DNA of 59,899 bases from contig JBAZZL010000004.1 in assembly GCA_041658785.1 (NCBI GenBank), positions 1 to 59,899 on the forward strand. The letters run 5' to 3'. The DNA comes from Patescibacteria group bacterium. GTDB taxonomy: Bacteria; Patescibacteriota; Patescibacteriia; Magasanikbacterales; UBA922. The position numbers and the translations under genes were made by a program. Below, piece after piece: positions 2,549-45,750 of the stretch. The notes under the pieces are model-generated. The model saw only the letters and a program-made list of their open reading frames with translations, did not search any database and was not told where the DNA came from. The number at the start of each line of letters is the position of its first letter. The stretch's first letter is position 1.

Positions 2549-2640
2549 TTTATTTCGTATTTCGTATTTCTTATTTCGTATTTCTTATTTCGTATTTCTT
2601 ATTTCGTATTTCTTATTTCGTATTTCTTATTTCGTATTTC
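2549..2640. repeat. tandem array of a 14-nt unit tatttcgtatttct (~6 copies)
   Basis: Read directly: tatttcgtatttcgtatttct then tatttcgtatttct repeated head to tail up to 2640. It fills the fba-pfk spacer. Confidence 0.95.
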
Positions 2641-2641
2641 A

Positions 2642-3856
2642 TTATTTATTTAAAATTTTGCCAACCACTGGCGCATCCAACATCTCCACCGGCTCTATTT
2701 CGCCAATCAGCGGTCTGGCATAATTTTTAAACTCATCAGCCACCATATTATTGCCTTTGATAAAATTGTCCGGCATCGTCTTTGTCTTGCCGGCCACTTC
2801 TTTTAGATCTACCAATTCATAATCTACCGCATAGTCGCCGGCGCGCCGAATCACGACAGAGCCATCTACATCTTCCCAAACAGCATACTGAACCGCGCGC
2901 TCCCCAACCTCACGCGCTTCATTCTTGTCAACTTCGCTCACACAGCCCAAAAATGATCTCTGCAAATATCCCAATGTATCTGCTCTGACTCTCTTAATTT
3001 TGGTTTTTGTTCTTATCAAATCAGCCAGAAGATCGCCCAGTGCGCCGTTGCCTGAAAGCTGGACATTGCCATGCGGATCATGTTCTTTTTCTTTTTGCAA
3101 ACCGGTGGCGATTGGCTCCCCGAAATCATCGTGAATTCCTTCAGACGCGGCCACGATACAACGGCCGTATTTATTATAAACTTCTTCCACATCGTTAACA
3201 AACTGGCCAGTGGAAAATATTCTCTCTGGCACATAGACCAGATGCGGACCGTCGTCAGACAGTCTTTTTGCCATTATTGAGGCTGCTGTCAAAAATCCCG
3301 CTTGCCTTCCCATCACCACTCCAATATATACTCCTGGCAAAGCCCGGTTATCCATATTTACCCCGGCAAAAGCTTTGGCAATAAATCTGCCGGCCGAACC
3401 ATAACCAGGGCAATGATCTGTTACTGCCAAATCATTATCAATTGTTTTTGGAATATGGATTGTTCTCAATTGATAATTTTGTTTTTCTGCCTGTTCATTT
3501 ACAATCCGGCAAGTATCGGCAGAATCATTGCCGCCAATGTAGAAAAAATAACCAATGCCATGATGCTTCATTGTTTCAAACATTTTCCGGCAATATTCTT
3601 CATCAGGCTTATCGCGGGTAGTACCCAAAGCAGACCCGGGTGTTGCGGCAACTTGTTCCAAATTGCTAGTAGAAGCTTCTGTCAAATCCAAAAAATCTTC
3701 TTTGATGATTCCTGATACGCCGTGCCTGGCGCCATAAATGCGTTCTATTTCAGGAAACTTTCTGGACTCCAAAATTATGCCAACTAAACTTTGGTTTATT
3801 ACTGCGGTCGGACCTCCCCCCTGCGCCACCAGCGCTTTGGCAATTAGTTTTGACAT
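2642..3856 (-). CDS. pfk: 6-phosphofructokinase family protein (long form, possibly PPi-dependent)
   Basis: 404 aa. N-terminal GGGPTAVINQSLVGII and IGGNDSADT match PFK nucleotide/sugar-phosphate motifs. ATP versus PPi specificity cannot be decided by eye. Confidence 0.8.
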   Translation of the reverse strand: MSKLIAKALVAQGGGPTAVINQSLVGIILESRKFPEIERIYGARHGVSGIIKEDFLDLTEASTSNLEQVAATPGSALGTTRDKPDEEYCRKMFETMKHHGIGYFFYIGGNDSADTCRIVNEQAEKQNYQLRTIHIPKTIDNDLAVTDHCPGYGSAGRFIAKAFAGVNMDNRALPGVYIGVVMGRQAGFLTAASIMAKRLSDDGPHLVYVPERIFSTGQFVNDVEEVYNKYGRCIVAASEGIHDDFGEPIATGLQKEKEHDPHGNVQLSGNGALGDLLADLIRTKTKIKRVRADTLGYLQRSFLGCVSEVDKNEAREVGERAVQYAVWEDVDGSVVIRRAGDYAVDYELVDLKEVAGKTKTMPDNFIKGNNMVADEFKNYARPLIGEIEPVEMLDAPVVGKILNK

Positions 3857-5091: not shown

Positions 5092-5092
5092 C

Positions 5093-5133
<41 letters not shown>

Positions 5134-7388: not shown

Positions 7389-7426
<38 letters not shown>

Positions 7427-8007: not shown

Positions 8008-8120
8008 CCGATGCTGCGCATCGGAAATTCCAAAATACAAATCCCAAAATACAAACAATATTTATAAAAGTGTTTGTTTCTTGTTTCTCGTAATTTGAAA
8101 CTTCCGGTGCGAAGCACCGG
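8008..8120 (-). other. 23S expansion segment with AT-word repeats
   Basis: Small hairpins ccgatgctgcgcatcgg and ccggtgcgaagcaccgg flank ccaaaatacaaatcccaaaatacaaac / gtttgtttcttgtttc. Confidence 0.65.
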
Positions 8121-8624: not shown

Positions 8625-8721
8625 GTTAGTTTCTTTCTTTTCCTCTGGCTACTGAGATGTTTCACTTCACCAGGTCTTCTCCATACACCTATGTATTCAG
8701 TGTATGGTACCAGTGTTTCAC

Positions 8722-8802
8722 GCTAGAAACCAATTTCAAAATTCAGAATTCAATCCGCCAGTTGGCGGAAGGATTTTGGATTTAAGATTTTGGATTTCCA
8801 GT
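8722..8802 (-). other. 23S expansion inside the 5'-domain hairpin closed by ccagtgtttcac / gtgaaacactgg
   Basis: ~80 extra nt with aatttcaaaattcagaattcaat, a ccgccagttggcgg hairpin and ggattttggatttaagattttggattt. Confidence 0.7.
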
Positions 8803-9154
8803 GTGAAACACTGGTGGGTTCCCCCATTCGGAAATTCCCGGGTCAAAGGTTGCTTGGGACCTCACCGAGACTTATCGCACCCTGCAACGTCCTTCATAGT
8901 TAAACAGTGTCAAGGCATCCACCGTACGCCCTTAATTTGCTTACTGCGAAAACACACAATTGTGCTTTCTTGCCACGCCTCCCGATTCAATCGGGATTAA
9001 CGTGGAAATGCTTTTAACATTCTCGTTGAATTGTAATGAACCTGCTCATTTTTCTTATACTACCCAATCTTACACACGAATTAACACCAAAATATATTCG
9101 TGTTAATTCGTGAAAAAAATTCGTGGTTATAATTCGTGTCAAAGATTCGCGGTT

Positions 9155-9546: not shown

Positions 9547-9631
9547 TGGTGCCGCGGGAGAGACTCGAACTCTCACACCCGAAGGCACGTGCTCCTAAGG
9601 CACGCGTGTATACCAATTTCACCACCGCGGC
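9547..9631 (-). tRNA. tRNA-Leu (anticodon TAG), CCA encoded
   Basis: The rc folds as gccgcgg-tg-gtg..cac-g-cgtgc-cTTAGga-gcacg, a 13-nt variable arm tgccttcgggtgt, gagag-ttcgagt-ctctc, ccgcggc-a-cca. Confidence 0.92.
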
Positions 9632-14125: not shown

Positions 14126-14248
14126 GAAATCCGCACTGTCCGAGCGCGAAATTCGTCCGCCGAACCGCGGACTCATTTCGCTACTCCACATAAAATAATC
14201 AAACGCGTAAGTCATGATTACTTTAAATTTACTTCCATCATTATTCCC

Positions 14249-14313
14249 TATTTCTAATTTCCAATTTCCAATTTCTAATTTCCAATTTCTAATTTCTAAT
14301 TTCCAATTTCCAA
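14249..14313. repeat. tandem 8-nt word array (atttccaa / atttctaa)
   Basis: tatttctaatttccaatttccaatttctaatttccaatttctaatttctaatttccaatttccaat, read directly in the NYN-pnp spacer. Confidence 0.95.
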
Positions 14314-14316
14314 TCA

Positions 14317-15217: not shown

Positions 15218-15389
15218 ACATTGCATATTACCGGCCGATAGCAAGTCTGTTGATAAACCGACTATGGTCAGACCAGCCAAAGGCTGGATTTATTAATCAG
15301 GAAGAGTATATCAGATGATAAAAATAATGTCAAGAATACCGAATCATTATTTCCTTTTTTGCTTCTCCTCGCATATAGTTAAGTCTAAG

Positions 15390-16691
15390 TTAATAAATAA
15401 ACATCGCGTCTCCAAAACTATAAAATCTATAATTTTGAGAAACGGCCTCTTGGTAACATTGTAGCACAAACCGCCTATTGCCGGCAAGCGCGCTTACTAA
15501 CATCAAAAGGGTTGATTTTGGGAGGTGAAAATTGGTGATTAACGCATCAACAATTTGAAAATTGAAACCCGGGCGGATAAAAATATCTATTTCTCCAGTA
15601 TAACTCTGTAATTTGTAATTTGTAACTGGTAATTTTCCTAATTTCAAATTTCTAATTTCAAATTTCCTATCTTCATTTATTTCAACTTTATCTCTACTTA
15701 TTATTTCATTGTTACATTGTTCCATTGTTAGATTGTTAGACAATCGGCCAACCCCTTTCCTCTTTCCTCTTTCCTCTTTCCCCAAAGCCGCGATTCCTTC
15801 CAATGTCCTCACCGTCGTCGTTCCCACCGCCACCACTCGTCTCCCCTCGCTCTTTGCCCGATTGATCTTCTCCGCGTTTTCTTCGGTCAATTCAACCCAC
15901 TCGCTATGCATCACATGATCCTCTAATCTTTCGGACTTAACCGGCAAAAATGTTCCCAAACCGACATGCAAAGTTACTTCGGCAAACTCAACTCCTTTTT
16001 TCTTTAACTTCTCAATCAACTCTGGAGTAAAATGGAATCCGGCGGTCGGCGCCGCGACTGATCCTTCTCTATCATCACGCGCGTAAACCGTTTGGTAACT
16101 CTCAAGTTTAAGATTTTTATCTCCTTTAATATATGGGGGCACAGGGACAACGCCATACTTGTTCGCTTTTTTTCTGACCGTTTCTTCATCATCCGGAAAT
16201 TGCACCAAAATACTTCCGTCCGGTTCTTTTATTACCACCTCGCAATAAAACACCTCGTCCAACTCCCTCCCCTTTTTAAGGGGAGGGCGGGGGTAGGGTT
16301 GTTCGCCATCTCCAAATACCACCCTCATCCCGGGCTTGACGTGCTTGCCAGGCCTTGCCAATACTTTCCATACGCCCGGATTTCCCATCGGCCGCACGAG
16401 CAATACTTCTACCGGTTTATCCTCGCCGCGCAAAACTCGTCCATCATTCGAAACCAACGACCCAAACAAACGCGCTTTGAAAACCTTTGAATTATTCCAC
16501 ACCAACAAATCGCCCTTATCCAAATAATCAACAATATTATAAAAATGACAGTGTTCAATCGCCTCTTTCCTCTTTCCCCTTTCCGCCTTTCCTCTATCAA
16601 CAATCATCAGCCGCGAATGGTCGCGCAGACGCGTTGGTTTTTGGGCAATAAGCTCTGCTGGAAGGTGGTAATTAAAATCAGCGGTTTTCAT
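15390..16691 (-). CDS. queA: S-adenosylmethionine:tRNA ribosyltransferase-isomerase, with repeat-derived in-frame insertions
   Basis: MKTADFNYHLPAELIAQKP at the start and GDAMFIY at the end. 433 aa, against ~340-350 aa recalled for typical QueA. Confidence 0.9.
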   Translation of the reverse strand: MKTADFNYHLPAELIAQKPTRLRDHSRLMIVDRGKAERGKRKEAIEHCHFYNIVDYLDKGDLLVWNNSKVFKARLFGSLVSNDGRVLRGEDKPVEVLLVRPMGNPGVWKVLARPGKHVKPGMRVVFGDGEQPYPRPPLKKGRELDEVFYCEVVIKEPDGSILVQFPDDEETVRKKANKYGVVPVPPYIKGDKNLKLESYQTVYARDDREGSVAAPTAGFHFTPELIEKLKKKGVEFAEVTLHVGLGTFLPVKSERLEDHVMHSEWVELTEENAEKINRAKSEGRRVVAVGTTTVRTLEGIAALGKEERGKRKGVGRLSNNLTMEQCNNEIISRDKVEINEDRKFEIRNLKLGKLPVTNYKLQSYTGEIDIFIRPGFNFQIVDALITNFHLPKSTLLMLVSALAGNRRFVLQCYQEAVSQNYRFYSFGDAMFIY

Positions 16692-24310: not shown

Positions 24311-24358
24311 ATTATTGTTACATTGTTAAATTGTTACATTGCTACATGGCTACATTGT
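24311..24358. repeat. word array attgttacattg-type (left flank of four-helix-bundle gene)
   Basis: attattgttacattgttaaattgttacattgctacatggctacattg. Confidence 0.9.
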
Positions 24359-24362
24359 TTGT

Positions 24363-24743
24363 CTAAAACTTTAATTTTGCGTTAGTAAAAGCAATGAGGC
24401 CATTAACTTCTTTGGGGAGTTTGTTTAATTCTCCCATAATATGGTCGTACTGTTTTTGACTAATCAACCCGCGTACCTTTGCTTTCAATGTCCAATCACA
24501 GCATTCTTTAACTGAACCGTAAGTATAACGATAAAATTTTATCTTATCTTTTTTACTGTATCTGCCAAAACCTTCGGCAATGTTCGCAGAATTGGAATCA
24601 ACCGCTCTTACCCACTGTTTGCCGATCGTATCTTTGGCAAAAAAATCCCACTTTATTACAATATCCCAAACATAATTAGACAAATGAAAAGCCATCTTAT
24701 ACGCGCCAATATCATTGAGTTGAAGATATTTTTGCTCTGACAT
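24363..24743 (-). CDS. four-helix-bundle protein (23S rRNA intervening-sequence protein family)
   Basis: FKMAFHLSNYVWDIV...RAVDSNSANIAEGFGRYSKKDKIKFYRYTYGSVKEC matches the family pattern recalled from memory. Confidence 0.75.
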   Translation of the reverse strand: MSEQKYLQLNDIGAYKMAFHLSNYVWDIVIKWDFFAKDTIGKQWVRAVDSNSANIAEGFGRYSKKDKIKFYRYTYGSVKECCDWTLKAKVRGLISQKQYDHIMGELNKLPKEVNGLIAFTNAKLKF

Positions 24744-24747
24744 AAAA

Positions 24748-24787
24748 AACAATTTAACAATTTAGCAATGTAACAATTTAGCAATAA
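24748..24787. repeat. inverted copy of the same word array (right flank)
   Basis: aacaatttaacaatttagcaatgtaacaatttagcaat. caatgtaacaat is the reverse complement of attgttacattg. Confidence 0.9.
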
Positions 24788-27646: not shown

Positions 27647-28462
27647 TTATTCCAGAACCAAAACCACTCTCCTGCCGTTCTTCACGTCCCCGCTGTTCCA
27701 ATCATGAATCGCGTTCATCAAAACATCGTACTTGTACCTGAAATCCGCGCCAAACTGCGTACCCGGATCGTTGGTAATGAATTCATCTTCATCATAACCC
27801 TTGATAATCAAAGCGTGATAAACCGGCCCGCCATTTCTAAAATGCGGATTGGGCAAAACCTTGCCATCGGCCACCGCCAAAACCGGCTGTCCGTTTGCCA
27901 GGTAATTTTTAATCTGCTCCACCGTGGGGTCAGCAATTATTTCAGATTTCAGATTTAAAATTTCGGATTTTTCCAAAATATAACTGTCAACTAGTTTTTT
28001 AACGTTTTCCATAGAAATACTTGGACCCAAACCCTGCTCTTTTTCCCAAGCAACCATTTTCAGCAATTCATCCTTTGCCGACAATGGACTTAAACCGTAA
28101 CTTTTGTAATAAGCGTCTAACATTAAAACCGCGGCCTCCTCGCACGCATCCTGCCACGGCTCTTCCCAATTTTTTTCCGGCGCTTGGGAGGTAAATGGCA
28201 CGGCTAAGTTCATTTGTGCCGGCAAGGTCTCGTCGGCAATTTCACCTAACCCTTTGACACCAACCCTTTCCCTATTTTGATTATCCTGCTTTATTTCCAA
28301 AATAGACAACTGCGGTATCTGTGTATTATAAATCTGCGGTTCATTCCTTGACCAAACGAAAACTGTCCCAGATACAAAAAAAACAAATAATCCTAAACAA
28401 ATTAAATTAAATTTTTTATAATCCATATTCTCAAATTTGAAATCAACGCTCTCTCTCTGCAT
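27647..28462 (-). CDS. membrane-anchored C39-like cysteine peptidase family protein
   Basis: N-terminal TM helix. VPFTSQAPEKNWEEPWQDACEEAAVLM and HALIIKGYDEDEFITNDPG resemble the Peptidase_C39-like (Cys...His) arrangement. Assigned from memory. Confidence 0.55.
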   Translation of the reverse strand: MQRESVDFKFENMDYKKFNLICLGLFVFFVSGTVFVWSRNEPQIYNTQIPQLSILEIKQDNQNRERVGVKGLGEIADETLPAQMNLAVPFTSQAPEKNWEEPWQDACEEAAVLMLDAYYKSYGLSPLSAKDELLKMVAWEKEQGLGPSISMENVKKLVDSYILEKSEILNLKSEIIADPTVEQIKNYLANGQPVLAVADGKVLPNPHFRNGGPVYHALIIKGYDEDEFITNDPGTQFGADFRYKYDVLMNAIHDWNSGDVKNGRRVVLVLE

Positions 28463-28530: not shown

Positions 28531-29778
28531 ATGTTTTTTGATATAACCCACAAATCATCCGACTGTCTCGCTCGTACTGGCATCATCCACACCGCGCACG
28601 GCGATATTGAGACGCCGGTTTTTATGCCGGTCGGCACGCAAGCGACAGTGAAAGCGCTGGATTCGGATGACCTCAAAAATCTTGACGCGCCAGTCATTCT
28701 CGCGAATACTTATCATTTGCACTTGCGGCCGGGCGAAAATTTAATTGCCGAACTTGGCGGACTGCATAAATTTATGAATTGGGACCGGCCGATTCTTACT
28801 GACTCCGGCGGTTTTCAAGTATTTTCACTCCAACACAAAAACATAACAACACCACAACACAACAACAATCAAAAATCTGAAATCATAAATCTGTCCCGCC
28901 GCAGCGGGACCCCGCTCGCTGCGGGGAAATCTGAAAGTGAAAGTGAACACAGCAATCTTGTAAAAATAGACAACGACGGCGTCACCTTTCACTCCCACAT
29001 CGACGGCTCCACTCACCGCTTCACCCCCGAATCCGCCATAGAAATTCAACACCAACTTGGCGCGGACATTATCATGGCCTTTGACGAATGTACGCCGGAT
29101 AATGTTTCAGAAGCAAAAGCCCGCGAGGCAATGGAACGGACGCATCAGTGGGCAGATCGTTCACTCACTTATCACCAACAAAATCTTAAATCTTCAATCT
29201 TCAATCTTCAATCACTCTTCGGCATCATCCAAGGCGCCAACTATCAAAAGCTTCGTGAAGAGTCTGCCCGCTTCATCTCCTCGCTAAACTTTGACGGCAT
29301 CGCCATCGGCGGCGAATCAGTCGGGTTTAATATGGAGGCGACTAAACAAATTCTGGACTGGGTGAACCCGATTATTCCGGAAGATAAACCCCATTACACC
29401 ATGGGCGTGGGACATTCGCCGTTGGATTTATTTGCCGTCGTGGAGCGCGGCGTGGATATGTTTGACTGCGTCTCGCCAACGAGGATGGCAAGAAACGGCG
29501 CGCTCTTTGTCCATCCAACGGTATCAAAAAAACACCGGATTGACATTACCAAATCAGAATTTAAAAAAGACGAACAGCCGATTGATCCGTCCTGCTCTTG
29601 TTCAACTTGTAAAAAATATTCCCGCGCCTATCTGAACCATCTTTTTAGCGCCAAAGAACTACTCGCTTACCGCTTGGCAACGATTCATAATGTGCATTTC
29701 TTTTTGGATTTGATGCGAGAGATTAGAAAAGCGATTAAAGAAGATAGTTTTTTGGAATTGAAGAGAAGCTGGGAATGA
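28531..29778 (+). CDS. tgt: queuine tRNA-ribosyltransferase with two repeat-derived in-frame insertions
   Basis: ARTGIIHTAHGDIETPVFMPVGT, TDSGGFQVFS, and the zinc site CSCSTCKKYSRAYLNHL. 415 aa. Confidence 0.92.
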   Translation: MFFDITHKSSDCLARTGIIHTAHGDIETPVFMPVGTQATVKALDSDDLKNLDAPVILANTYHLHLRPGENLIAELGGLHKFMNWDRPILTDSGGFQVFSLQHKNITTPQHNNNQKSEIINLSRRSGTPLAAGKSESESEHSNLVKIDNDGVTFHSHIDGSTHRFTPESAIEIQHQLGADIIMAFDECTPDNVSEAKAREAMERTHQWADRSLTYHQQNLKSSIFNLQSLFGIIQGANYQKLREESARFISSLNFDGIAIGGESVGFNMEATKQILDWVNPIIPEDKPHYTMGVGHSPLDLFAVVERGVDMFDCVSPTRMARNGALFVHPTVSKKHRIDITKSEFKKDEQPIDPSCSCSTCKKYSRAYLNHLFSAKELLAYRLATIHNVHFFLDLMREIRKAIKEDSFLELKRSWE

Positions 29779-29823
29779 TGGCTGGCGGTAGTCCGACAAG
29801 TAATCCTTCTGTTTATTAGCGCT

Positions 29824-29990
29824 GGCGGTAGCCCGACAACTCTATCTCTGTCTCTTTCCCTTATGAAGGGAAAGAGAACCCGTTAAGTAAGTTTAACTCT
29901 AATCCAATCGTAAGCCCCTTTCCCTTCGTACTTGTCCCGTCGGATACGGGAAGGGAAAGGGGTTGGGGATAGGGTTGTCGGACTACCACC
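29824..29990 (-). mobile_element. MITE-like foldback element, family 1, copy A (inverted relative to B and C)
   Basis: Termini are ggcggtagcccgacaac ... gttgtcggactaccacc. Internal hairpins are ctctttcccttatgaagggaaagag and cccctttcccttc..gaagggaaagggg. A solo terminus ggcggtagtccgacaag sits at 29784-29800. Confidence 0.8.
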
Positions 29991-31611: not shown

Positions 31612-32346
31612 TCAGGCTTCATTGGTATACACCTCTTTCACATCCTCCAGCTCTTCCAACGCGCCAAACAACTCCGCCATTTTTTTGGAAATATTTTCAT
31701 CAACCTTAATCTCCTCCTTCGCCACCCACTCCGATCCGGCGCTCGCCGGTTCAATACCAAAAGAACGCCCCGCTTCCAAAACCTTCTGAAACTTTTCCAT
31801 CGAACAGCGAATTTCCATCCCGAACTCGCTATCAACAATATCATCAGCGCCGGCGTCAATCAGTGCCAATTCAAAATCGGACTTTTCACTTTGGACTTTG
31901 GACTTTTGACTTTCATCAAGACGGACTACGCCCAACTGCCCAAACTGCCACCGCACGCTCCCCGGTCCGCCAAGCGAACCGCCGTATTTGGAAAACACGT
32001 TCTTCAATTCTCCGACCGTGCGGTTGGTGTTATCAGTAATCGTTTCAATCAAAATCGCGACACCGCCCGGCCCGTATCCTTCGTAAATCACTTCCTGAAT
32101 CGCGGCTTCGTCTTTCAATTCGCCGGTGCCGCGCTTGATCGCGTGGTCAATCTTGTCTTTCGGCACATTGCCGGCCCGGGCTTTCTCAATCGCGAGCCGC
32201 AGAGAAAAATTCGTATCTACTTCTCCCCCGCCCTGCTGGGCCGCGACTGTAACCGCCCGGCAAAGTTTGGTAAACAAATCCCCCCGCATCGCGTCCCGCT
32301 TGCCTTTTTTCTGTTGAATATTGTGCCACTTGGAGTGACCGGACAT
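31612..32346 (-). CDS. yebC: YebC/PmpR-family transcriptional regulator
   Basis: MSGHSKWHNIQQKKGKRDAMRG start. 244 aa. Confidence 0.92.
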   Translation of the reverse strand: MSGHSKWHNIQQKKGKRDAMRGDLFTKLCRAVTVAAQQGGGEVDTNFSLRLAIEKARAGNVPKDKIDHAIKRGTGELKDEAAIQEVIYEGYGPGGVAILIETITDNTNRTVGELKNVFSKYGGSLGGPGSVRWQFGQLGVVRLDESQKSKVQSEKSDFELALIDAGADDIVDSEFGMEIRCSMEKFQKVLEAGRSFGIEPASAGSEWVAKEEIKVDENISKKMAELFGALEELEDVKEVYTNEA

Positions 32347-32610
32347 AAAAAATGAAGATTAAAAGATTAAAAGATTACGAATTGCCATCCAATGGCAATC
32401 TTTTAATCTTCAATTCTTATTACTCGACTGTCTCATTGTTACATTGTTACATTGTCGTGTTGGCGTGCTTTCGTGTTGTCGTGACCACAGTATACCGTCC
32501 AAGCCATTTTTTTTCAAGCAAAAAGCGCCATTCCCATGGCGCCTTTTGTCTCCTGCGGATCCTCCTGTTTTTGAGACAGTTGGATCCGCATTGTATGTCT
32601 CCTTCAGCTC

Positions 32611-33389: not shown

Positions 33390-33529
33390 CCCCGCTTTAG
33401 CGGGGGTCGCGGGGCTTTAGCCCCAATTCCAATAAATATACGAGCTAAAGCTCGCGAAACCTCGGCTAAAGCCGAGTAGATTAAGCAGATATTAACCTCG
33501 GCTAAAGCCGAGTAGATTAAGCAGATATT
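33390..33529. repeat. array of five GC-stem hairpins with TTTA/TAAA loops, including a 34-nt direct repeat x2
   Basis: ccccgctttagcgggg, ggggctttagcccc, cgagctaaagctcg, and cctcggctaaagccgagtagattaagcagatatt twice (33460-33493 and 33496-33529). Confidence 0.9.
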
Positions 33530-33540
33530 TATTCAATGGT

Positions 33541-34710
33541 ATGAAATCCACTCCCTCAAAACTAATCCTAAAAAACAAAACCCAATTCCCCGGCTACTCC
33601 CCGTCGTGGCAGACCGACTGGTATTCCGGCGAAGTCGTTTTCACTACCGGCATGACCGGTTATGTGGAGACGCTCACCGATCCGTCTTACGCCGGGCAGA
33701 TCATCGTCTTCACTTATCCGCTGATCGGCAACTATGGCGTCCCTGCCGTAAAGACGCCCCGTTGGGGCGTCTCTGGCGCCCGTTGGGGCGTCTCTCGTCA
33801 TGGCATCTCCGGCTGGGAGTCAAACAAAATCCACGCCGCCGGCGTCGTCGTCTCCGAAGCGTGCGAGAATTGGAGCCACGCGGACGGAAAATTGTCATTG
33901 CTGGAATGGTTAAAAGAGCAGAAAGTGCCAATTATTACCGGCGTAGACACACGGGCGTTGACGAAGATGTTGAGAGAATATGGAGTGATGCTTGGAGCGA
34001 TTAACACGAGGCACGAGGCACGTAACACGAGACACGAAACACGAAACACGAAACTGGAAACAATTGTCCGATTACCAATTACTAATTATAAATTCATTGA
34101 TCCAAATAAAAAAAACCTTGTAGCAAAAGTATCCTGCAAAAAAAAGAAAACCTACGGCAAGGGCAAAAAAATCATTTTCGCCGTTGACTGCGGCATGAAG
34201 GAAAGTATTATGCGGGAATTAAAAAAGTTTGACCTGACGATTCACCGCGTGCCGTATAATTATGATTATACCAAGGAGAAGTTTGACGGCGTCGTATTGT
34301 CCAACGGTCCCGGAGATCCGATGATGGCGAACGAAACGATTGAGATTTTGAAACGGGCGATGAAATTCAAAAAACCGATCTTTGGCATCTGTCTCGGTTC
34401 ACAACTGATGGGTCTCGCGGCCGGAGCAAAAACCTACAAACTGCCATACGGACATCGCGGGCAGAACCAGCCGGTAATTGAAACCGCGACCAAACGCTGT
34501 TATATCACCAGTCAAAATCACGGTTATGCTGTTAACGAAAAATCATTGCCGCGCGATTGGCGGGTAAATTTTCGCAATCTGAACGACGGCTCGGTGGAAG
34601 GCGTGGCGCATAAACGCCTGCCGTTTTTTTCGGTACAGTTTCATCCGGAAGCGGCGCCGGGGCCTACTGATACGGCTCGGTTGTTTAGACAATTTTATGA
34701 ATTGTTGTAA
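33541..34710 (+). CDS. carA: carbamoyl-phosphate synthase small (glutaminase) subunit, with two repeat-derived insertions
   Basis: [22 protein letters not shown], catalytic GICLGSQLM, and VQFHPEA. Confidence 0.92.
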
Positions 34711-34724
34711 AAAAATAAAGTTTT

Positions 34725-34888
34725 GCAGCCCGACAACCCTATCCCCAACCCCTTTCCCTTCCCGTATCCGACGGGACAAGTACGAAGGGAAAGGGGCTAA
34801 CGATTGAATTTAAGTTAACCTTACTTTATTTGGTTCTCCTTCCCTTCATAAGGGAAGGAGACAGAGGTAGGGTTGTCGGGCTACCGCC
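34725..34888 (+). mobile_element. MITE-like foldback element, family 1, copy B (carA-carB junction)
   Basis: gcagcccgacaaccctatcccc ... ggtagggttgtcgggctaccgcc. Internal hairpins are cccctttcccttc..gaagggaaagggg and ctccttcccttcataagggaaggag. Confidence 0.85.
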
Positions 34889-34899
34889 AACCAGAGCTT

Positions 34900-37800
34900 A
34901 TGTCACAACGCAACACACAACCCCGCACTGTCTTAATCTTAGGTTCAGGTGGACTAAGAATCGGCCAAGCCGGCGAGTTTGACTATTCCGGCTCTCAAGC
35001 CATAAAAGCTTTGAAAGAAGAAGGAATAAAAACCGTCCTGATCAATCCCAACATCGCCACAGTCCAGACCGATCCGACAATGGCCAACACGGTTTATCTC
35101 CAGCCGTTGAATTTTGACATTGTCAGCAAAATTATTGCCCAGGAAAAACCGGATGGCCTGCTTTTGAGCTTTGGCGGGCAGACGGCGCTTAATTTAGGAT
35201 TGGAATTGGCAGAAAAGGGAGTATTGAAAAAATATCAAGTGGCGGTAGTGGGAACGCCGGTGCAGGCGATTAGAATTACTGAAGACAGGGATTTGTTCAA
35301 AAAAGAGCTGAACAAAATTGAAGTCAAAACGCCGAAGAGTGAAGCAGTAAAGACTGTCGCCGATGCTCTCCGCGCGGCGAAAAAAATCGGTTATCCCGTG
35401 ATGATGCGTTCAGGATTTTCTTTGGGCGGATTGGGCAGCGGAGTGGTGCGCGAGGAAAAAGAACTAAAGAAAAAAGCCGGCGAGGCCCTAAGCACTGTAC
35501 CGCAAATTTTGATTGAAGAATATTTAGGCGGGTGGAAAGAAGTGGAATATGAAGTGGTGAGGGACGGCGCTGACAACTGCATTACGGTTTGCAACATGGA
35601 AAATTTTGACCCGATGGGCATTCATACTGGCGAGAGCATTGTGGTGGCGCCTTCGCAGACCTTAAATAATCATGAGTATCATTTATTGCGCGAAGTAAGC
35701 ATCAAAATCGCCCGGCAAATTGGCATTATCGGCGAGTGCAATGTGCAGTTTGCGCTAAATCCAGAGAACAGTGATTATCGGGTAATAGAAATGAATGCCC
35801 GACTTTCCCGTTCCAGCGCCTTGGCTTCCAAAGCTACTGGCTATCCGCTCGCCTTTGTCGCGGCCAAGCTGGCTCTGGGCAAGCGTCTGGATGAACTGAA
35901 AAATGCGGTGACCCAAAAAACCTCGGCCTTTTTTGAACCAGCTCTGGATTACCTAGCGCTAAAAATTCCGCGCTGGGACACGCATAAATTAAAAACCGCC
36001 GAACGCTTTATCGGCACGGAAATGAAAAGCGTCGGCGAGGTGATGGCGATCGGCCGCTCGTTTCCCGAGGTTTTGCAAAAAGCGGTGCGGATGCTGAACC
36101 ACGGCATGACCGGAGTGCATGATTATCCGTATAAAATAAATAATATCAAAGACGAAATCGCCCGGCCGACCGACCGGCGGCTGTACGCGTTGTATAAGTT
36201 TTTTTCTGCCGGCGGTTCGGTGAACGAGGCGCATAAACTGTCCGCGATTGACCCGTGGTTTTTGCATCATATTAAAAGAATCGCAGAGGTGGAGAAATTG
36301 GAAATTAGAAACTGGAAATTAGAAACTGGAAACAAGTTACAAGTTACAAGTTACAAGTTACAAAAAGCCAAACAATTCGGCTTCTCCGACCGCGCTATCG
36401 CGACTATCGTTGGCACCGACGAAGAGGCCATTAGAACCCAACGGCTTAAAGCGGGAATCAAGCCGGTCGTAAAACAAATTGACACTCTCGCCGGCGAATT
36501 TCCGGCGCAAACGAATTATCTTTATCTGACTTATCATGGAACGAAGAATGACTTAAAACCGAGCGCGAAAAAGCCGATCGTGGTTCTCGGCTCCGGACCA
36601 TATTCAATCGGTTCGTCCGTGGAATTTGATTGGTCGGCGGTAAATACCGCGAGAACATTAAGAAAACACCATGAACAAACTATCATTATCAATTCCAATC
36701 CCGAAACCGTTTCCACGGATTATGATGAATCCAATCGGCTGTATTTTGAAGAACTGACTTTGGAACGGGTGCGAGACATCGCTGATTTTGAAAAAACCAA
36801 AGGCATCATTGTCTCGGTCGGCGGACAGATTGCCAACTCGCTCGCCATGCCGCTTTATAAATCGGGCTACAAAATTTTAGGAACATCGCCCGAAGATATC
36901 GACCGGGCCGAAGATCGGGCAAAATTTTCTTCTTTGCTTAATGAATTAAAAATTGACCAGCCGGAATGGGAAGAGGCTTCCACGATTGACAAAGCAAAAA
37001 AATTCGCGGATCGGGTGGGGTATCCGATATTAGTTCGTCCCTCGTATGTTCTCTCCGGCGCGGCCATGAACGTGGTTTATGATGAAGAAACATTAAAAAA
37101 ATATCTGACCGACGCGGCCACGGTTTCGCCGGATCATCCGGTCGTGATTTCGCGATTTTTGACCGGCGCCAAGGAGCTCGAAATTGACGGCGTGGCCGAG
37201 AAAGGAGAAATCAAAATCGAAGTCATGAGCGAACATGTAGAAAATGCCGGCGTGCATTCGGGCGACGCGACCATTGTTGTTCCGCCGCAACGGTTATACC
37301 TAGAAACCATTCGTCGCGCCAAAAGATTGGCAAGAAAAATCGTCCGCGCGCTGAATATCACCGGCCCGTTCAACATCCAATTTTTGGCCAAAGAAAATTG
37401 GTTGAAAATCATTGAATGCAATCTGCGCGCCTCTCGTTCTTTTCCGTTTGTTTCCAAAGTTACCGGATATAATCTGATAGAAATCGCCACAAAAATTTTA
37501 CTCGGCCAGCATCGCCCCGCCCAATACCACACCATGGAACTTGACTACGTCGGCGTCAAAACGCCTCAATTCTCTTATAGCCGCCTCAAAGGCGCGGATC
37601 CGGTGGCGCAAGTGGAAATGGCCTCCACCGGCGAAGTGGCCTGCATCGGCGATGATTATCTGGAAGCGTTCATGCTCTCGTGGCTCGCGACCGAACAGAC
37701 AGTCAAAGGCAAAAATATCCTGCTCTCCATTGGCAGAGAAAATAAAAACAAATTATTTGAATGGATTCAAAAGCTGGACGAAAAGGGTTGGAATATCTAT

Positions 37801-38118
37801 GCCACGGAAAACACCCACCGCTATCTCACCGAGCGCGGGGTCGGGTGTGAGTTTGTCCACAAAATCAGCGACCTATCTTCGCCGCATGTCGGCGACCTGA
37901 TTGAAGAGCGAAAAGTTGATTTGATCATCAATATCCCCCGCGGGCAGGGAAACGACTCCGACACCGACGGCTACAAAATCCGCCGCCTCGCGATTGACTA
38001 CCACATTCCTCTCATCACCAACCTCCAAATCGCGCGGTTATTTTTGCAGTGTTTGGTGGAACTAGACGTGAGTAAGCTGGAAGTGAAGGCGAGGGGGGAG
38101 TATAATGGTACGCGATAG
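34900..38118 (+). CDS. carB: carbamoyl-phosphate synthase large subunit
   Basis: Start set at MSQRNTQPRTVLILGSGGLRIGQAGEFDYSG, because the longer ORF begins inside the MITE. It has two ATP-grasp halves and an MGS-like C-terminus. Confidence 0.93.
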   Translation: MSQRNTQPRTVLILGSGGLRIGQAGEFDYSGSQAIKALKEEGIKTVLINPNIATVQTDPTMANTVYLQPLNFDIVSKIIAQEKPDGLLLSFGGQTALNLGLELAEKGVLKKYQVAVVGTPVQAIRITEDRDLFKKELNKIEVKTPKSEAVKTVADALRAAKKIGYPVMMRSGFSLGGLGSGVVREEKELKKKAGEALSTVPQILIEEYLGGWKEVEYEVVRDGADNCITVCNMENFDPMGIHTGESIVVAPSQTLNNHEYHLLREVSIKIARQIGIIGECNVQFALNPENSDYRVIEMNARLSRSSALASKATGYPLAFVAAKLALGKRLDELKNAVTQKTSAFFEPALDYLALKIPRWDTHKLKTAERFIGTEMKSVGEVMAIGRSFPEVLQKAVRMLNHGMTGVHDYPYKINNIKDEIARPTDRRLYALYKFFSAGGSVNEAHKLSAIDPWFLHHIKRIAEVEKLEIRNWKLETGNKLQVTSYKLQKAKQFGFSDRAIATIVGTDEEAIRTQRLKAGIKPVVKQIDTLAGEFPAQTNYLYLTYHGTKNDLKPSAKKPIVVLGSGPYSIGSSVEFDWSAVNTARTLRKHHEQTIIINSNPETVSTDYDESNRLYFEELTLERVRDIADFEKTKGIIVSVGGQIANSLAMPLYKSGYKILGTSPEDIDRAEDRAKFSSLLNELKIDQPEWEEASTIDKAKKFADRVGYPILVRPSYVLSGAAMNVVYDEETLKKYLTDAATVSPDHPVVISRFLTGAKELEIDGVAEKGEIKIEVMSEHVENAGVHSGDATIVVPPQRLYLETIRRAKRLARKIVRALNITGPFNIQFLAKENWLKIIECNLRASRSFPFVSKVTGYNLIEIATKILLGQHRPAQYHTMELDYVGVKTPQFSYSRLKGADPVAQVEMASTGEVACIGDDYLEAFMLSWLATEQTVKGKNILLSIGRENKNKLFEWIQKLDEKGWNIYATENTHRYLTERGVGCEFVHKISDLSSPHVGDLIEERKVDLIINIPRGQGNDSDTDGYKIRRLAIDYHIPLITNLQIARLFLQCLVELDVSKLEVKARGEYNGTR

Positions 38119-43111: not shown

Positions 43112-43156
43112 TGCGAGTTAGCATTTTACGTTTTTAAACAAGGTAGATCCAAGTTT

Positions 43157-43268
43157 AATTCACCTAATTTCCAATTCACCTAATTCACCTAATAAAATGT
43201 CCAATTTCTAATTTTTTAATTTGACATTTTATTAGGTGAATTAGACAATTAGGTGAATTAGGTGAATT
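43157..43268. repeat. 112-nt foldback made of cacctaatt words (45-nt arms)
   Basis: aattcacctaatttccaattcacctaattcacctaataaaatgtc pairs with gacattttattaggtgaattagacaattaggtgaattaggtgaatt. Confidence 0.92.
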
Positions 43269-44191: not shown

Positions 44192-44207
44192 AATAGTCAC
44201 GTTTGAG

Positions 44208-44395
44208 GAATTAAGTTGAACGCTGCTAAACCGAAAGGATGCCAGACCCACGCACCTCAACCCCCCGCCCCTTCTCCTTGAAGGAGAAGGGGAGACCGCC
44301 AGCGAGAGGTTTTAGTTCCCCTTCCCCTTTTAGGGGAAGGGGACAGGGGATGAGGTGCGCGGGCAGTACCATAGAAACGAACTATGGCTACCTCT
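44208..44395 (+). repeat. foldback element, family 2, copy D
   Basis: taagttgaacgctgctaaaccgaaaggatgccagacccacgcacctcaacccc, hairpins ccccttctccttgaaggagaagggg and ccccttccccttttaggggaagggg, then ggggatgaggtgcgcggg. Confidence 0.85.
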
Positions 44396-44416
44396 ATCAG
44401 GGAGTACAAACAGTTG

Positions 44417-44598
44417 ATTAACGCCCGGGCGCAAACGTTGCGTAAAAAACAAACACCGGCGGAAGCAAAACTTTGGCCATACCTGCGGGGCCGGAAATTC
44501 GTTTGACAGATATGGAGTACAGTGTCTTGAGATTCAAAAACAAAGAAGTAATGGAAAACATTGACGAAGTTTTGGAGAAAATAAAAAACCAAGGTTGA
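44417..44598 (+). pseudogene. DUF559-type endonuclease remnant (N- and C-terminal pieces in different frames, core deleted)
   Basis: Frame A reads INARAQTLRKKQTPAEAKLWPYLRGRKFV*. Frame B reads DMEYSVLRFKNKEVMENIDEVLEKIKNQG*. Both match the conserved ends of DUF559 proteins as I recall them. Confidence 0.65.
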
Positions 44599-44605
44599 TG
44601 CGTTT

Positions 44606-44795
44606 AAGTTGGACGTTGCTAAAACAAAAGGACGTCAGACCCACGCACCTCATCCCTAACCCTTCTCCTTGAAGGAGAAGGGAAGCGATTGACGAGTTTT
44701 TTCGTCTCCCCTTCTCCTCAAAGGAGAAGGGGCCGGGGGGATGAGGTGCGTTGGCGCCACCATACAAACGAATTACCAATGCCTCCCTCAGGCAG
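44606..44795 (+). repeat. foldback element, family 2, copy E (direct repeat of D)
   Basis: taagttggacgttgctaaaacaaaaggacgtcagacccacgcacctcatccc, hairpins cccttctccttgaaggagaaggg and ccccttctcctcaaaggagaagggg, then ggggatgaggtgcgttgg. Confidence 0.85.
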
Positions 44796-44827
44796 CACAA
44801 ACAGACAACACAAACAATCTCTTTATT

Positions 44828-45661
44828 ATGCCAACCGACACCCCCAAAATGTTAAAAATCACGAAAATAACAACCGAAACCCTCCGCGTCAAGACCTTTT
44901 ATTTTAATTACCCGCTAAACAGCCGGCCAGGGCAGTTTGTGATGGTTTGGATTCCGGGCGTTGATCAAAAACCGTTTTCAATCGGTTATGACGACGGCAA
45001 AAAGTTTGGTTTAACCGTCTGCGCCGTGGGGAATTTTTCTAAAAAGTTTTCAACGATGAAAGTCGGCGAAAAAGTCGGCGTTTCCGGTCCGTACGGCACG
45101 AGCTTTTCTCTTAAATCCAATACGCATTACATCACCGTTGCCGGCGGCTACGGCGCCGCGCCGTTGGGTTATCTGGCCGAAGAAGCGTCAAAGTTAAAAA
45201 ATGTTAAAATAGATTTTTTGCTCGGCGCGAAGAGTTGTGATAGTATATTGTTTGAGAAAAGATTAAGTAAGTTAAAAAATACTACGGTGCATTGCGCTAC
45301 GAACGATGGGAGTAAGGGATATCGAGGATTTGTTACTGATTTTTTAAAACAACACATCAACACTCCAACACATCAACACCTAAACCCATCAACACTTAAA
45401 CACGTATTGGTGTGCGCTTGCGGCCCGGAACTGATGGAAAAAAAAGTCTTAGACATCTGCAACGAGCATAAAATAAATTGCGAAGTAAGTATTGAACGAT
45501 ACATGAAATGCGGCCTCGGCGTCTGCGGCCAGTGCGCGGTGGATGACCTTGGTATTTGCATGTGTACGCATGGGCCGGTGGTGAGTCGCGAATTGGCGAA
45601 TAAGATTAAGGAGTTTGGGGTTTATCATCGGGATAAGAGTGGAGCTAAACATAATTTTTGA
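44828..45661 (+). CDS. pyrK: dihydroorotate dehydrogenase electron-transfer subunit
   Basis: FAD/NAD-binding fold and a C-terminal 2Fe-2S cysteine cluster MKCGLGVCGQCAV..CMC. Start set at the ATG at 44828, outside repeat E. Confidence 0.88.
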   Translation: MPTDTPKMLKITKITTETLRVKTFYFNYPLNSRPGQFVMVWIPGVDQKPFSIGYDDGKKFGLTVCAVGNFSKKFSTMKVGEKVGVSGPYGTSFSLKSNTHYITVAGGYGAAPLGYLAEEASKLKNVKIDFLLGAKSCDSILFEKRLSKLKNTTVHCATNDGSKGYRGFVTDFLKQHINTPTHQHLNPSTLKHVLVCACGPELMEKKVLDICNEHKINCEVSIERYMKCGLGVCGQCAVDDLGICMCTHGPVVSRELANKIKEFGVYHRDKSGAKHNF

Positions 45662-45750
45662 ACAAAATTAGACGAAATTAAACAAAATTAAACAAAATTG
45701 GACAGAATTAATTTTGTATAATTTTTTGTAATTTTGTTTAATTTATTTTC
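45661..45750. repeat. five phased 10-mers (aacaaaatta-type) followed by their inverted copies
   Basis: aacaaaatta gacgaaatta aacaaaatta aacaaaattg gacagaatta, then attttgtata attttttgta attttgttta. Confidence 0.9.

What the first reader, a model, noticed from the sequence alone, without database searches (positions are those of the whole stretch)
36294..36365. A ~20-aa peptide module built from AT-rich word repeats sits in frame inside three unrelated enzymes (carB, queA, carA)
The three peptides align without gaps in the core:
- carB reads LEIRNWKLETGNKLQVTSYKLQK (DNA gaaattagaaactggaaattagaaactggaaacaagttacaagttacaagttacaagttacaa).
- queA reads FEIRNLKLGKLPVTNYKLQS (sense DNA gaaatttgaaattagaaatttgaaattaggaaaattaccagttacaaattacaaattacag, 15598-15672).
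- carA reads [21 protein letters not shown] (34040-34095).

The consensus is E-(I/T)-R-N-x-K-L...L-(P/Q)-(V/I)-T-(N/S)-Y-K-(L/F). All three are in the sense orientation and preserve the host frame. They lie at positions where, as I recall the families, homologues have short variable loops.

The first half of the word set also forms a non-coding array at 14249-14313. The carA copy keeps the peptide but uses different DNA words (cacgaaa...), which hints at constraint on the peptide rather than only on the DNA.

This resembles Rickettsia palindromic elements, which insert in frame into housekeeping genes. I do not know of it being described for this kind of repeat.
Basis: partly seen in the sequence, partly recalled or inferred. 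Interest (0 to 1): 0.85.

Follow-up and report, generated by a model that had tools for sequence, protein, structure and literature searches.

The report
Translated heptamer repeat arrays inside enzymes
A tiny uncultured bacterium (Candidatus Magasanikbacteria) is peppered with short AT-rich 7–10-base tandem repeats, and some copies sit in frame inside essential enzymes, so the shared "peptide module" is best read as translated repeat DNA and not as a protein domain.

Summary
carB (36293-36365), queA (15607-15666) and carA (34002-34095) each carry, in frame and in sense, a (GAAAYNN)n heptamer array followed directly by an (nTTACnA)n array. Neither word is expected by chance, and every copy of word 2 abuts a copy of word 1. 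About 105 CarB and CarA homologues lack the module.

It is not a peptide-level entity. The window (a Patescibacteria/CPR genome) holds 28 strong arrays of 6-11-nt units: 14 intergenic (often inverted pairs that fold as hairpins), 13 in CDSs, and more in 23S rRNA expansion segments. Array-derived stretches also occur in tgt, pyrK, yebC, a C39 peptidase and elsewhere in queA.

The shared peptide follows from the shared DNA. Period 7 is coprime to 3, so the GAAA core yields E-x-(R/G)-N-x-K-x. Only one of six frames is open across each composite, so sense and in-frame placement is a survivorship filter. Relatives read the same word antisense (QFPISNF) at the same QueA hotspot.

carA and carB share the junction GAAACTG-GAAACAA, which argues for copying. 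The composites are not palindromic, so they resemble Rickettsia palindromic elements in outcome but are not members. I rate this a new variant of a known kind, of moderate interest.

The parts
36293..36365 (+). carB in-frame composite. It is one continuous period-7 array: GAAATTG GAAATTA GAAACTG GAAATTA GAAACTG GAAACAA GTTACAA x4. It encodes aa 474-497, EKLEIRNWKLETGNKLQVTSYKLQ.
   Evidence: GC is 28% against 49% for the gene. The net gain is about 8-9 aa relative to 30 homologues shown.
15607..15666 (-). queA composite. Word 1 (GAAATTT/GAAATTA x3.9) lies at 15638-15666 and word 2 (TTACAAA x4.1) at 15607-15635. It encodes aa 342-362, RKFEIRNLKLGKLPVTNYKLQ.
15609..15785 (-). Whole queA insert block (aa 303-361). 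It is five consecutive arrays in sense order: AGGAAAG x3.9, TAACAATG x4, an 11-mer x2.2, word 1, word 2.
   Evidence: T. maritima QueA has zero residues at this point. The site is hypervariable in 22 Magasanikbacteria homologues.
34002..34095 (+). carA composite. (AACACGA/GAAACAC)x8.6 ends in GAAACTG GAAACAA, followed by TTGTCCG and then ATTACCA ATTACTA ATTATAA. It encodes aa 154-185.
   Evidence: The stretch is typically 21-22 aa longer than in 75 homologues and lies in the linker between the two CarA domains.
14243..14314 (-). Intergenic array of word 1 alone (GAAATTG/GAAATTA x9-10), between the NYN-domain gene and pnp.
   Evidence: The 82-aa ORF over it has no family match. Three strain SNPs fall at the variable unit position.
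16562..16595 (-). Second array site in queA (CCTCTTT x4.7), encoding aa 33-44, RGKAERGKRKEA. The word is the same as at 15755-15781.
28834..28950 (+). tgt insert (aa 102-140) containing a CAACACAA octamer array and AATCAAA/AATCTGA units, right after the DSGGFQV motif.
   Evidence: Z. mobilis TGT has zero residues at this point.
29182..29213 (+). tgt array AATCTTC x4.6 (NLKSSIFNLQS). It replaces a native loop with a gain of about 1-2 aa.
45350..45403 (+). pyrK octamer array CAACACAT x6.8 (QHINTPTHQHLNPSTLKH). The word family is the same as in the tgt insert.
31879..31913 (-). yebC array (AAAGTCC on the sense strand, x5), encoding about QKSKVQSEKS. The gain is about 5 aa relative to homologues.
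27939..27970 (-). Array CTGAAAT x4.6 in a C39-like peptidase (KSEILNLKSEI).
8715..8806 (-). 23S rRNA expansion segment (91 nt where the model has 4) built from two roughly complementary heptamer arrays.
   Evidence: fold z = -6.9.
8025..8116 (-). 23S rRNA expansion containing GAAACAAGAAACAA and AAUUACGA (both word types) and a 14-mer array.
43156..43268 (.). Intergenic inverted pair of 9-mer arrays (TAATTCACC x4.4 and ATTAGGTGA x4.3) upstream of pyrD. It would form a long hairpin.
   Evidence: -49 kcal/mol, z = -9.8.
45661..45744 (.). Intergenic inverted pair of 10-mer arrays between pyrK and pyrE.
   Evidence: z = -5.2.
24314..24785 (.). Inverted octamer arrays (ATTGTTAC and GTAACAAT) flanking a PF05635 gene. 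The word is the same as the queA octamer at 15707-15738 and the array at 32434-32455.
2551..2647 (.). Longest array in the window (TATTTCG/TATTTCT x12.9), intergenic between fba and pfp.

Best explanation
The module is a DNA-level repeat, not a protein module. This Candidatus Magasanikbacteria (CPR) genome carries a population of short AT-rich tandem arrays: units of 7-10 nt, usually about 4 copies, drawn from a handful of recurring words.

**Where they live (shown).** Mostly in spacers, often as inverted pairs that would fold into long hairpins. They also occur in rRNA expansion segments and in protein-coding genes.

**How a copy survives in a gene (inferred).** A copy that arises in or is copied into a coding region survives only if three conditions hold:
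1. It lands in a loop that tolerates extra residues.
2. The net length change is a multiple of 3.
3. The host frame is free of stops.

**Why the peptide recurs (shown).** Because 7 is coprime to 3, a heptamer array translates into a 7-residue periodic peptide. The shared GAAA core gives E-x-(R/G)-N-x-K-x and the TTACnA core gives (L)-x-(V/I)-T-x-Y-(K/Q). For the mixed units actually present, only one of the six frames is open. Every surviving copy therefore shows the same peptide, in sense and in frame.

**Spread and later evolution (inferred).** The carA, carB and queA composites are copies of one two-word array and not independent births. Arrays then drift and are re-homogenised unit by unit. 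The copying mechanism is not identified. The translated peptide is a tolerated passenger with no demonstrated function.
For: 1. **Genome-wide population.** There are 28 strong arrays in 60 kb, while 65 of 80 loci around carB from other lineages have none. Density is about 5-fold higher in spacers than in CDSs.
2. **Same words in all contexts.** Word 1 is intergenic at 14243-14314, present in 23S expansions and present in three genes. The CATTGTTA word is in queA, at 24314/24748 and at 32434. CAACACAN is in tgt and pyrK.
3. **Frame arithmetic.** All three frames of a pure heptamer give the same circular peptide. Across each real composite, exactly 1 of 6 frames is open, and it is the host frame.
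4. **Orientation is free when stops allow.** L083 carries CAATTTC x4.4 (QFPISNF) at the same QueA site. L154 has FSIFNFQF. The Elp3-like P0264 and FlhF-like P0211 carry sense plus antisense copies in frame.
5. **Common origin.** carA and carB share GAAACTG GAAACAA at the transition between words. L081 keeps both words in one period-7 register. All 3 word-2 arrays abut word-1 arrays.
6. **Lineage-specific gain at permissive sites.** The 30 CarB homologue alignments shown and the 75 CarA homologues spanning the site lack the module. The QueA site ranges from 0 to about 60 aa across the clade, with different arrays in different genomes.
7. **Composition.** The inserts are 28-29% GC in carB and queA, and 40% in carA, in genes of 44-49% GC.
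8. **Not a widespread protein domain.** Only 170 of 1.84 billion representative proteins match at E <= 0.001. Most are short ORFs laid over long arrays.
9. **Translated, not removed.** All 13 CDS arrays are stop-free in the host frame although many have only 1-2 of 6 frames open.
Against: - The way arrays are copied between loci is not identified. No transposase, target-site duplication or terminal motif was found.
- Near-identical strains show no indels in about 37 kb, so ongoing slippage was not observed.
- The same or similar words recur in genomes only about 60% identical at the protein level, and even in other phyla. Purely neutral slippage does not easily explain this. It could point to a sequence-specific process or function.
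- No test of peptide-level selection with adequate power was possible, because there are too few independent copies.
- The structural placement of the QueA insert rests on a poor model (mean pLDDT 60.7).
Confidence: 0.75

Rival explanations
1. A sequence-specific mobile or templated system creates and spreads these arrays. Candidates are a non-autonomous element made of inverted array pairs mobilised in trans, or a short-template repeat-adding enzyme acting at breaks. In-gene composites would then be decayed copies of such elements.
For: - Word families recur across Magasanikbacteria that are only about 60% identical and in other phyla.
- Arrays have a characteristic size of about 4 units.
- Intergenic copies typically come as inverted pairs.
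- The word-2 core TTAC is the complement of GTAA, one base away from the word-1 core GAAA.
- In-frame sense plus antisense pairs exist in P0264 and P0211.
- carA and carB share a junction.
Against: - There is no transposase, reverse transcriptase or conserved terminal motif in the window, and no target-site duplications.
- Unit lengths range from 6 to 11 nt with many different words, so one enzyme or template does not suffice.
- The in-gene composites do not fold better than shuffles.
- With 241 million contigs searched using a loose pattern, some cross-phylum hits could be coincidental.
Confidence: 0.2
2. The module is a functional peptide, for example a surface hairpin or interaction motif, spread among enzymes and kept by selection on the amino-acid sequence.
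For: - The same peptide pattern appears in three enzymes.
- The QueA of a distant relative (P0059) has NWKLDIRE...LPITSYQLL at the same site even though its DNA array is decayed.
- The sense peptide is hydrophilic and amphipathic, which suits a surface loop.
Against: - The peptide is the forced translation of the DNA word.
- Untranslated copies exist in a spacer and in rRNA.
- Antisense readings occupy the same site in relatives.
- Neighbouring arrays with unrelated peptides occupy the same loops.
- The global search finds mostly spurious short ORFs.
- The QueA insert has low model confidence.
Confidence: 0.05
3. Each stretch arose independently in place by replication slippage of native AT-rich codons, so these are ordinary lineage-specific loops with no shared origin.
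For: - The array ends blend into native residues: E-K at the left of the carB insert, and K-L-x or K-F at the right of all three.
- Some arrays replace loops without lengthening them much.
- Heptamer SSRs are generally over-represented in bacteria (PMC4692102).
Against: - Three of three word-2 arrays directly follow word-1 arrays in the same order and strand, where about 0.06 word-2 hits are expected.
- The 14-nt junction is identical in carA and carB.
- The same words occur in spacers and in rRNA.
Confidence: 0.07
4. The in-gene arrays act in cis at the RNA or DNA level, for example in translational pausing, mRNA stability or binding of a nucleoid protein. The coding copies would then be selected for that role.
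For: - Intergenic pairs and rRNA copies form strong hairpins.
- A-tract heptamers repeat with a 21-bp (two-turn) phase.
- In cyanobacteria and Xanthomonas, heptamer repeats lie preferentially near gene ends (PMC4692102).
Against: - The in-gene composites have no structure beyond chance.
- They sit at arbitrary internal loops of unrelated enzymes.
- They are absent from the CarA and CarB homologues examined and from many QueA homologues.
Confidence: 0.08

Closest known systems
Rickettsia palindromic elements (RPEs)
   Same: Both are dispersed repeat DNA found in frame inside unrelated housekeeping genes, at sites compatible with protein folding, as well as in non-coding DNA. Both produce a recurring inserted peptide (PMC10969869; PMC3184786).
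   Different: - RPEs are ~150-bp palindromic elements with family consensus sequences.
- The composites here are 60-95-nt tandem arrays of 7-nt units with no significant fold and variable copy number.
- The host is a CPR bacterium, not Rickettsia.
- A separate GC-rich mini-palindrome in queA (16254-16313) and another in carA (33754-33816) are closer to the RPE idea than the reported module is.
Cyanobacterial STRR heptamer repeats and heptamer SSRs of Nostoc and Xanthomonas
   Same: Both are tandem heptanucleotide arrays, typically about 4 units, dispersed in many copies from a few word families and enriched in spacers near gene ends (PMC4692102; STRR and Elhai's small dispersed repeats are from my own knowledge).
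   Different: - The words and the phylum differ.
- Those repeats are described as under-represented in coding DNA.
- Here 13 of 28 strong arrays are translated inside conserved enzymes, and others expand 23S rRNA helices.
- Units of 8, 9 and 10 nt take part alongside heptamers.
- Inverted array pairs are common here.
MITEs and REP-like intergenic hairpin repeats
   Same: The intergenic inverted array pairs form long hairpins in spacers, as REP, SPRITE and MITE elements do. A true MITE-like 160-nt element with 15-nt terminal inverted repeats is also present in the window.
   Different: The arms are internally tandem-repetitive, the sequences differ from pair to pair, and no terminal inverted repeats or target-site duplications define them. 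The in-gene composites are not inverted repeats.
Contingency-locus simple sequence repeats (phase variation)
   Same: Both involve short tandem repeats inside or next to genes.
   Different: Units of 7-8 nt in essential metabolic genes would destroy the gene on any single-unit change. No length variation was seen among four strain-level loci.

Membership tests
Rickettsia palindromic elements (RPE) | The element is palindromic and folds as a hairpin. | tested here: not met
   RNA folds of the carB, queA and carA composites give z = -0.08, -0.96 and +1.59 against shuffles.
Rickettsia palindromic elements (RPE) | About 100-150 bp with a family consensus sequence. | tested here: not met
   The composites are 60-95 nt and built of 7-nt tandem units with variable copy number.
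Rickettsia palindromic elements (RPE) | Inserted in frame into unrelated conserved genes as well as into non-coding DNA. | tested here: met
   The arrays are in carA, carB, queA, tgt, pyrK and yebC, and also in spacers and rRNA.
STRR-like dispersed heptamer tandem repeats | Head-to-tail repeats of a 7-nt unit. | tested here: met
   TRF finds period 7 with 79-100% matches. The register layout confirms it.
STRR-like dispersed heptamer tandem repeats | Many dispersed copies of a few word families, enriched in intergenic DNA. | tested here: met
   14 of 28 arrays lie in the 16% of the window that is intergenic. Words recur at 2-4 sites each.
STRR-like dispersed heptamer tandem repeats | Cyanobacterial host and the canonical STRR words. 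| tested here: not met
   The host is Candidatus Magasanikbacteria by QueA relatives. The words are GAAATTN, TTACAAN and others, not the STRR words as I recall them.
MITE | Terminal inverted repeats and target-site duplication. | tested here: not met
   Neither is present at the three composites. The separate 160-nt element at 34727-34889 does have terminal inverted repeats.
Phase-variable SSR (contingency locus) | Copy number varies among close strains and switches the frame. | tested here: not met
   There are 0 indels in 37 kb across the strain-level loci L193-L196.
Conserved protein domain or peptide motif | Conservation at the amino-acid level beyond what the DNA dictates, and recurrence in proteins independent of repeat DNA. 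| tested here: not met
   The peptide equals the forced translation. Antisense readings occur at the same site. The global profile search returns 170 hits, mostly short ORFs over arrays.
Conserved protein domain or peptide motif | A defined, confidently predicted fold. | tested here: inconclusive
   In the AF2 QueA model, insert residues 306-357 have pLDDT < 50, but the whole model is poor (mean 60.7).

The most novel reading that the evidence does not exclude
The arrays are the footprint of a dedicated, sequence-specific system that is conserved across Patescibacteria and present in other phyla. Examples would be a trans-mobilised hairpin element whose arms are tandem heptamers, or a templated repeat-adding activity. 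Such a system would seed the same few words into spacers, rRNA helices and protein loops, making it a general engine of protein-loop and rRNA-expansion evolution in reduced genomes.
Probability: 0.2. Interest if true: 0.8.

Novelty: new variant of a known kind. Interest (0 to 1): 0.55.

Why it matters
**For annotation.** Recurring "motifs" such as EIRNWKL, ITNYKLQ, QFPISNF or QHxNTxT in CPR proteins are translated repeat DNA and should not be read as domains. Many short "hypothetical proteins" in metagenome catalogues are gene calls laid over such arrays.

**For biology.** One class of simple DNA repeat lengthens protein loops, rRNA helices and spacers at once in an ultra-small genome. This gives a concrete route by which CPR proteins and rRNAs acquire their lineage-specific insertions.

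**Open puzzle.** The recurrence of the same words in genomes only about 60% identical, and in other phyla, is unexplained. If a specific mechanism lies behind it, that would be a new kind of genome-shaping element.

Tried and rejected
- **Exact look-up of the window's QueA** found nothing at first. The cluster look-up later gave strain-level loci.
- **Strain comparison for array-length polymorphism**. No indels, so it says nothing on slippage rate beyond showing stability on a short timescale.
- **AF2 model of QueA with a 23-sequence alignment**. It was too poor (pLDDT 60.7) to place the insert confidently, so I did not run fold search on it.
- **Low-threshold TRF density across carB loci** did not discriminate. 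A stricter threshold was needed.
- **My first greedy gene map** placed spurious ORFs inside the 23S rRNA gene and chose the wrong strand at yebC. It was corrected using Rfam and the gene calls of the strain loci.
- **The 82-aa ORF over the 14243-14314 array.** I considered a real gene or an rpsO fragment. It was rejected because it has no family match and rpsO lies at 14849-15280.
- **Splicing of the arrays before translation.** Rejected because every CDS array is stop-free and preserves the frame.
- **Hairpin between word 1 and word 2.** The cores are one mismatch from complementary, but the folds are no better than shuffles.
- **Literature searches** found no description of such arrays in Patescibacteria. 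Elhai's 2008 paper on small dispersed repeats is not held in the library, so it is cited from memory only.
Full report
**1. The observation**

- **carB** (34873-38118, +) encodes ...VEKLEIRNWKLETGNKLQVTSYKLQKAK....
- **queA** (15390-16691, -) encodes ...RKFEIRNLKLGKLPVTNYKLQSY....
- **carA** (33541-34710, +) encodes ...[35 protein letters not shown]....

Tandem Repeats Finder reports period-7 arrays at all three sites and at the intergenic site 14243-14314. The words are far above chance.
- (GAAAYTN)2GAAA with up to 1 mismatch gives 15 overlapping hits at four loci, against 0.03 expected.
- (TTACNAN)2TTA gives 5 hits at three loci, against 0.06 expected.
- Every word-2 array lies directly 3' of a word-1 array on the same strand.

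The two-part composite is therefore a real, non-random entity.

**2. Insertion boundaries**

- **QueA.** Against T. maritima QueA (1vky), the window protein has about 59 extra residues (aa 303-361) at a point where the structure has none.
- **CarA.** Against human CPS1 and E. coli CarA, the repeat stretch fills the linker between the two domains. Relative to 75 homologues from the fetched loci, the window protein is typically 21-22 aa longer there, and none has the module.
- **CarB.** Homologues have about 15 residues between "...EK" and "L..AK.GFSD", and the window has 23-24, all of it repeat DNA. The array has largely replaced the native loop, with a net gain of 8-9 aa.

The inserts are AT-rich in carB and queA (28-29% GC) and less so in carA (40% GC), in genes of 44-49% GC.

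**3. The host and the wider phenomenon**

QueA relatives identify the organism as Candidatus Magasanikbacteria (Patescibacteria/CPR). The nearest sequence is only about 60% identical.

The window contains 28 strong arrays with units of 6-11 nt.
- 14 lie in the 16% of the window that is intergenic.
- 13 lie in CDSs (77% of the window).
- 1 passes the threshold in the rRNA gene.

By contrast, 65 of 80 carB loci from other lineages have none.

Other genes also carry array-derived stretches.

| Gene | Array or stretch |
|---|---|
| tgt | aa 102-140, an insert with zero counterpart in Z. mobilis TGT; and aa 217-228 |
| pyrK | aa 204-221, octamer CAACACAT |
| yebC | heptamer array at 31879-31913 |
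| C39-like peptidase | heptamer array at 27939-27970 |
| queA | aa 33-44, plus three more arrays stacked upstream of the module |

Tgt and pyrK share a second "peptide module", Q-H-x-N-x-T-x-x-H, for the same reason as the first: they share an octamer word.

The 23S rRNA gene (4736-8947, 4,212 nt against a 2,925-nt model) has expansion segments that coincide with arrays. One contains GAAACAAGAAACAA and AAUUACGA.

Intergenic arrays frequently come as inverted pairs that fold into long hairpins (z = -9.8 and -5.2). The rRNA expansion at 8715-8806 also folds (z = -6.9).

**4. Why the peptide is the same**

A pure heptamer array gives the same 7-residue periodic peptide in all three frames, because 7 and 3 are coprime.
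- The GAAA core fixes E (GAA), N (AAY), K (AAA) and R/G (nGA).
- The variable third of the unit gives the "x" positions.
- The TTACnA core gives L, T, Y and K/Q.

With the mixed units actually present (GAAATTA creates TAG or TGA in two phases; the antisense of TTACAAn creates TAA), exactly one of the six frames is open across each of the three composites. That frame is the host frame. "Sense, in frame, same peptide" is therefore what any surviving copy must look like.

The carA left half is not a different word. Its unit GAAACAC shares the core, and its last two units, GAAACTG GAAACAA, are identical to the last two word-1 units in carB. This shared 14-nt junction, together with the invariable word-1 to word-2 order, argues that the composites are copies of one another and not independent products of slippage.

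**5. Orientation is not fixed when stops allow**

The loop after TLEG(I/V)A is hypervariable (0 to about 60 aa) in an alignment of 23 Magasanikbacteria QueA sequences. The DNA of three relatives shows stacks of arrays there.

| Locus | Arrays at the QueA hotspot |
|---|---|
| L083 | CAATTTC x4.4, the antisense of word 1 (read as QFPISNF); then AACAATAT x3.8, the same octamer family as the window |
| L085 | ATTTCAG, GACAATAG and AAAGATCA arrays |
| L081 | A decayed word-1 array and TTACCAG x3.6, kept in one period-7 register |

A metagenome-wide scan for the composite found 107 stretches.
- Many are clear two-array composites in spacers.
- Several are in long ORFs in sense, such as a GatB in L132, membrane proteins in L135 and L154, and a DUF1549/1553-type protein in L089.
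- L154 also carries FSIFNFQF, the antisense reading.

**6. Not a protein domain**

A profile of the three window modules, searched against 1.84 billion representative proteins, gave 170 hits at E <= 0.001.
- Most are short ORFs of 45-200 aa with many repeated stretches. These are gene calls laid over long arrays.
- A few are real hosts: the Elp3-like P0264 and the FlhF-like P0211, both with sense plus antisense word-1 pairs in frame, and the sensor kinase P0170.

The AF2 model of QueA gives pLDDT < 50 for residues 306-357. The model is poor overall (mean 60.7), so this is only consistent with a disordered surface loop and does not prove one.

**7. Dynamics**

Four strain-level loci from three other samples are 99.93-99.97% identical to the window with no indels over about 37 kb. 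Two conclusions follow.
- The arrays are not assembly artefacts.
- They are not hypermutable on this timescale.

Four of the 27 variable positions fall in arrays, which make up 3.7% of the bases. Three of them are at the variable unit position of the intergenic word-1 array, which suggests unit turnover.

**8. Comparison with known systems**

- **Rickettsia palindromic elements.** In outcome this resembles RPEs: dispersed repeats fused in frame into unrelated metabolic genes (PMC10969869). It fails two defining features. The composites are not palindromic, and they are tandem arrays, not ~150-bp consensus elements.
- **STRR and heptamer SSRs.** Structurally the arrays are closest to cyanobacterial STRR and to the heptamer SSRs of Nostoc and Xanthomonas. 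Those are dispersed, have about four units, and are described as under-represented in coding DNA (PMC4692102). The host phylum, the words, the mix of 7-10-nt units, the inverted pairing and above all the frequent translated and rRNA copies are different here.
- **Prior description.** I found none for Patescibacteria.

**9. Verdict**

The best explanation is a dispersed DNA-level tandem-array family that is passively translated where it is tolerated (confidence 0.75).

Two things remain open: how arrays are copied between loci, and why the same words recur across deep lineages. Those open points leave room (about 0.2) for a dedicated sequence-specific mechanism.

I rate the finding as a new variant of a known kind, with interest 0.55.

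Noticed in passing
window 4736-8947 (-), 5741-6310 (-), 4547-4653 (-), 9550-9631 (-): The 23S rRNA gene is 4,212 nt against a 2,925-nt model. It carries about 1.3 kb of insertions, including a LAGLIDADG endonuclease ORF. A 5S rRNA and a tRNA lie nearby. Several greedy ORFs in this region are spurious.
   Followed up: partly
window 34727-34889 (+) and 29823-29981 (-): A MITE-like GC-rich element of about 160 nt, with 15-nt terminal inverted repeats (AGCCCGACAACCCTA / TAGGGTTGTCGGGCT) and internal hairpins, is present in two copies (87-91% identical). One copy fills the whole carA-carB spacer. The other lies downstream of tgt.
   Followed up: partly
window 16254-16313 (-), queA aa 127-146: A second class of in-frame insert is present: the GC-rich mini-palindrome CCCTCCCCTT-AAAA-AGGGGAGGG, preceded by CAACCCTACCCCCGCCC. 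That lead sequence matches the 5' end of the MITE-like element (3 mismatches, 0.03 expected). It encodes EQPYPRPPLKKGRELD. Relatives have other inserts at this site (SASSGQA, HPDPLLIKERR, PSSRGREEGVTVRGDE).
   Followed up: partly
window 33754-33816 (+), carA aa 72-92: A duplicated GC-rich palindrome (ACGCCCC-GTT-GGGGCGT, 21-nt unit x2) encodes [14 protein letters not shown]. The stretch is about 10 aa longer than in human CPS1.
   Followed up: no
window 44192-44760: The pyrD-pyrK spacer (about 550 nt) is filled with GC-rich palindromes of the CCCTTCTCCTTGAAGGAGAAGGG type. The ORFs at 44257-44592 and 44534-44800 are probably not genes.
   Followed up: no
window 24314-24785: A PF05635 gene (23S rRNA intervening-sequence protein, four-helix bundle) at 24363-24752 is bracketed by inverted octamer arrays, as if the arrays delimit a cassette.
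   Followed up: no
window 36426-36462 compared with L196: There is a cluster of 10 SNPs in 37 nt of carB, starting 60 nt downstream of the array, in an otherwise 99.93% identical strain. This may be a short recombination or conversion tract.
   Followed up: no
window 33458-33529: A perfect 36-nt x2 direct repeat, containing the hairpin CTCGGCTAAAGCCGAG, lies immediately upstream of the carA start. It could be a regulatory element of the pyrimidine operon.
   Followed up: no
window 33541-38118: CarA and CarB are more similar to human mitochondrial CPS1 (1135 bits) than to E. coli CarB (844 bits). The nearest genomic relatives are scattered among Chlamydiota, Saccharibacteria, DPANN archaea and mislabelled "Gammaproteobacteria" MAGs, which suggests horizontal spread of this CPS type.
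   Followed up: no
window 14849-15280 (-): rpsO is called at 143 aa, whereas S15 is usually about 89 aa. It has an acidic C-terminal extension of about 35 aa that ends in a DKDKDN hexamer array, and its start is probably over-extended.
   Followed up: no
alignment A1 (QueA relatives P0006, P0008, P0012, P0033, P0036, P0075): A recurring GC-rich insert peptide, S(A/T)SSGQA, appears at two different sites in different Magasanikbacteria QueA proteins. LPLSGG..GG and GTSPGRGG motifs appear at the hotspot. This looks like another dispersed in-frame element family in the clade.
   Followed up: no
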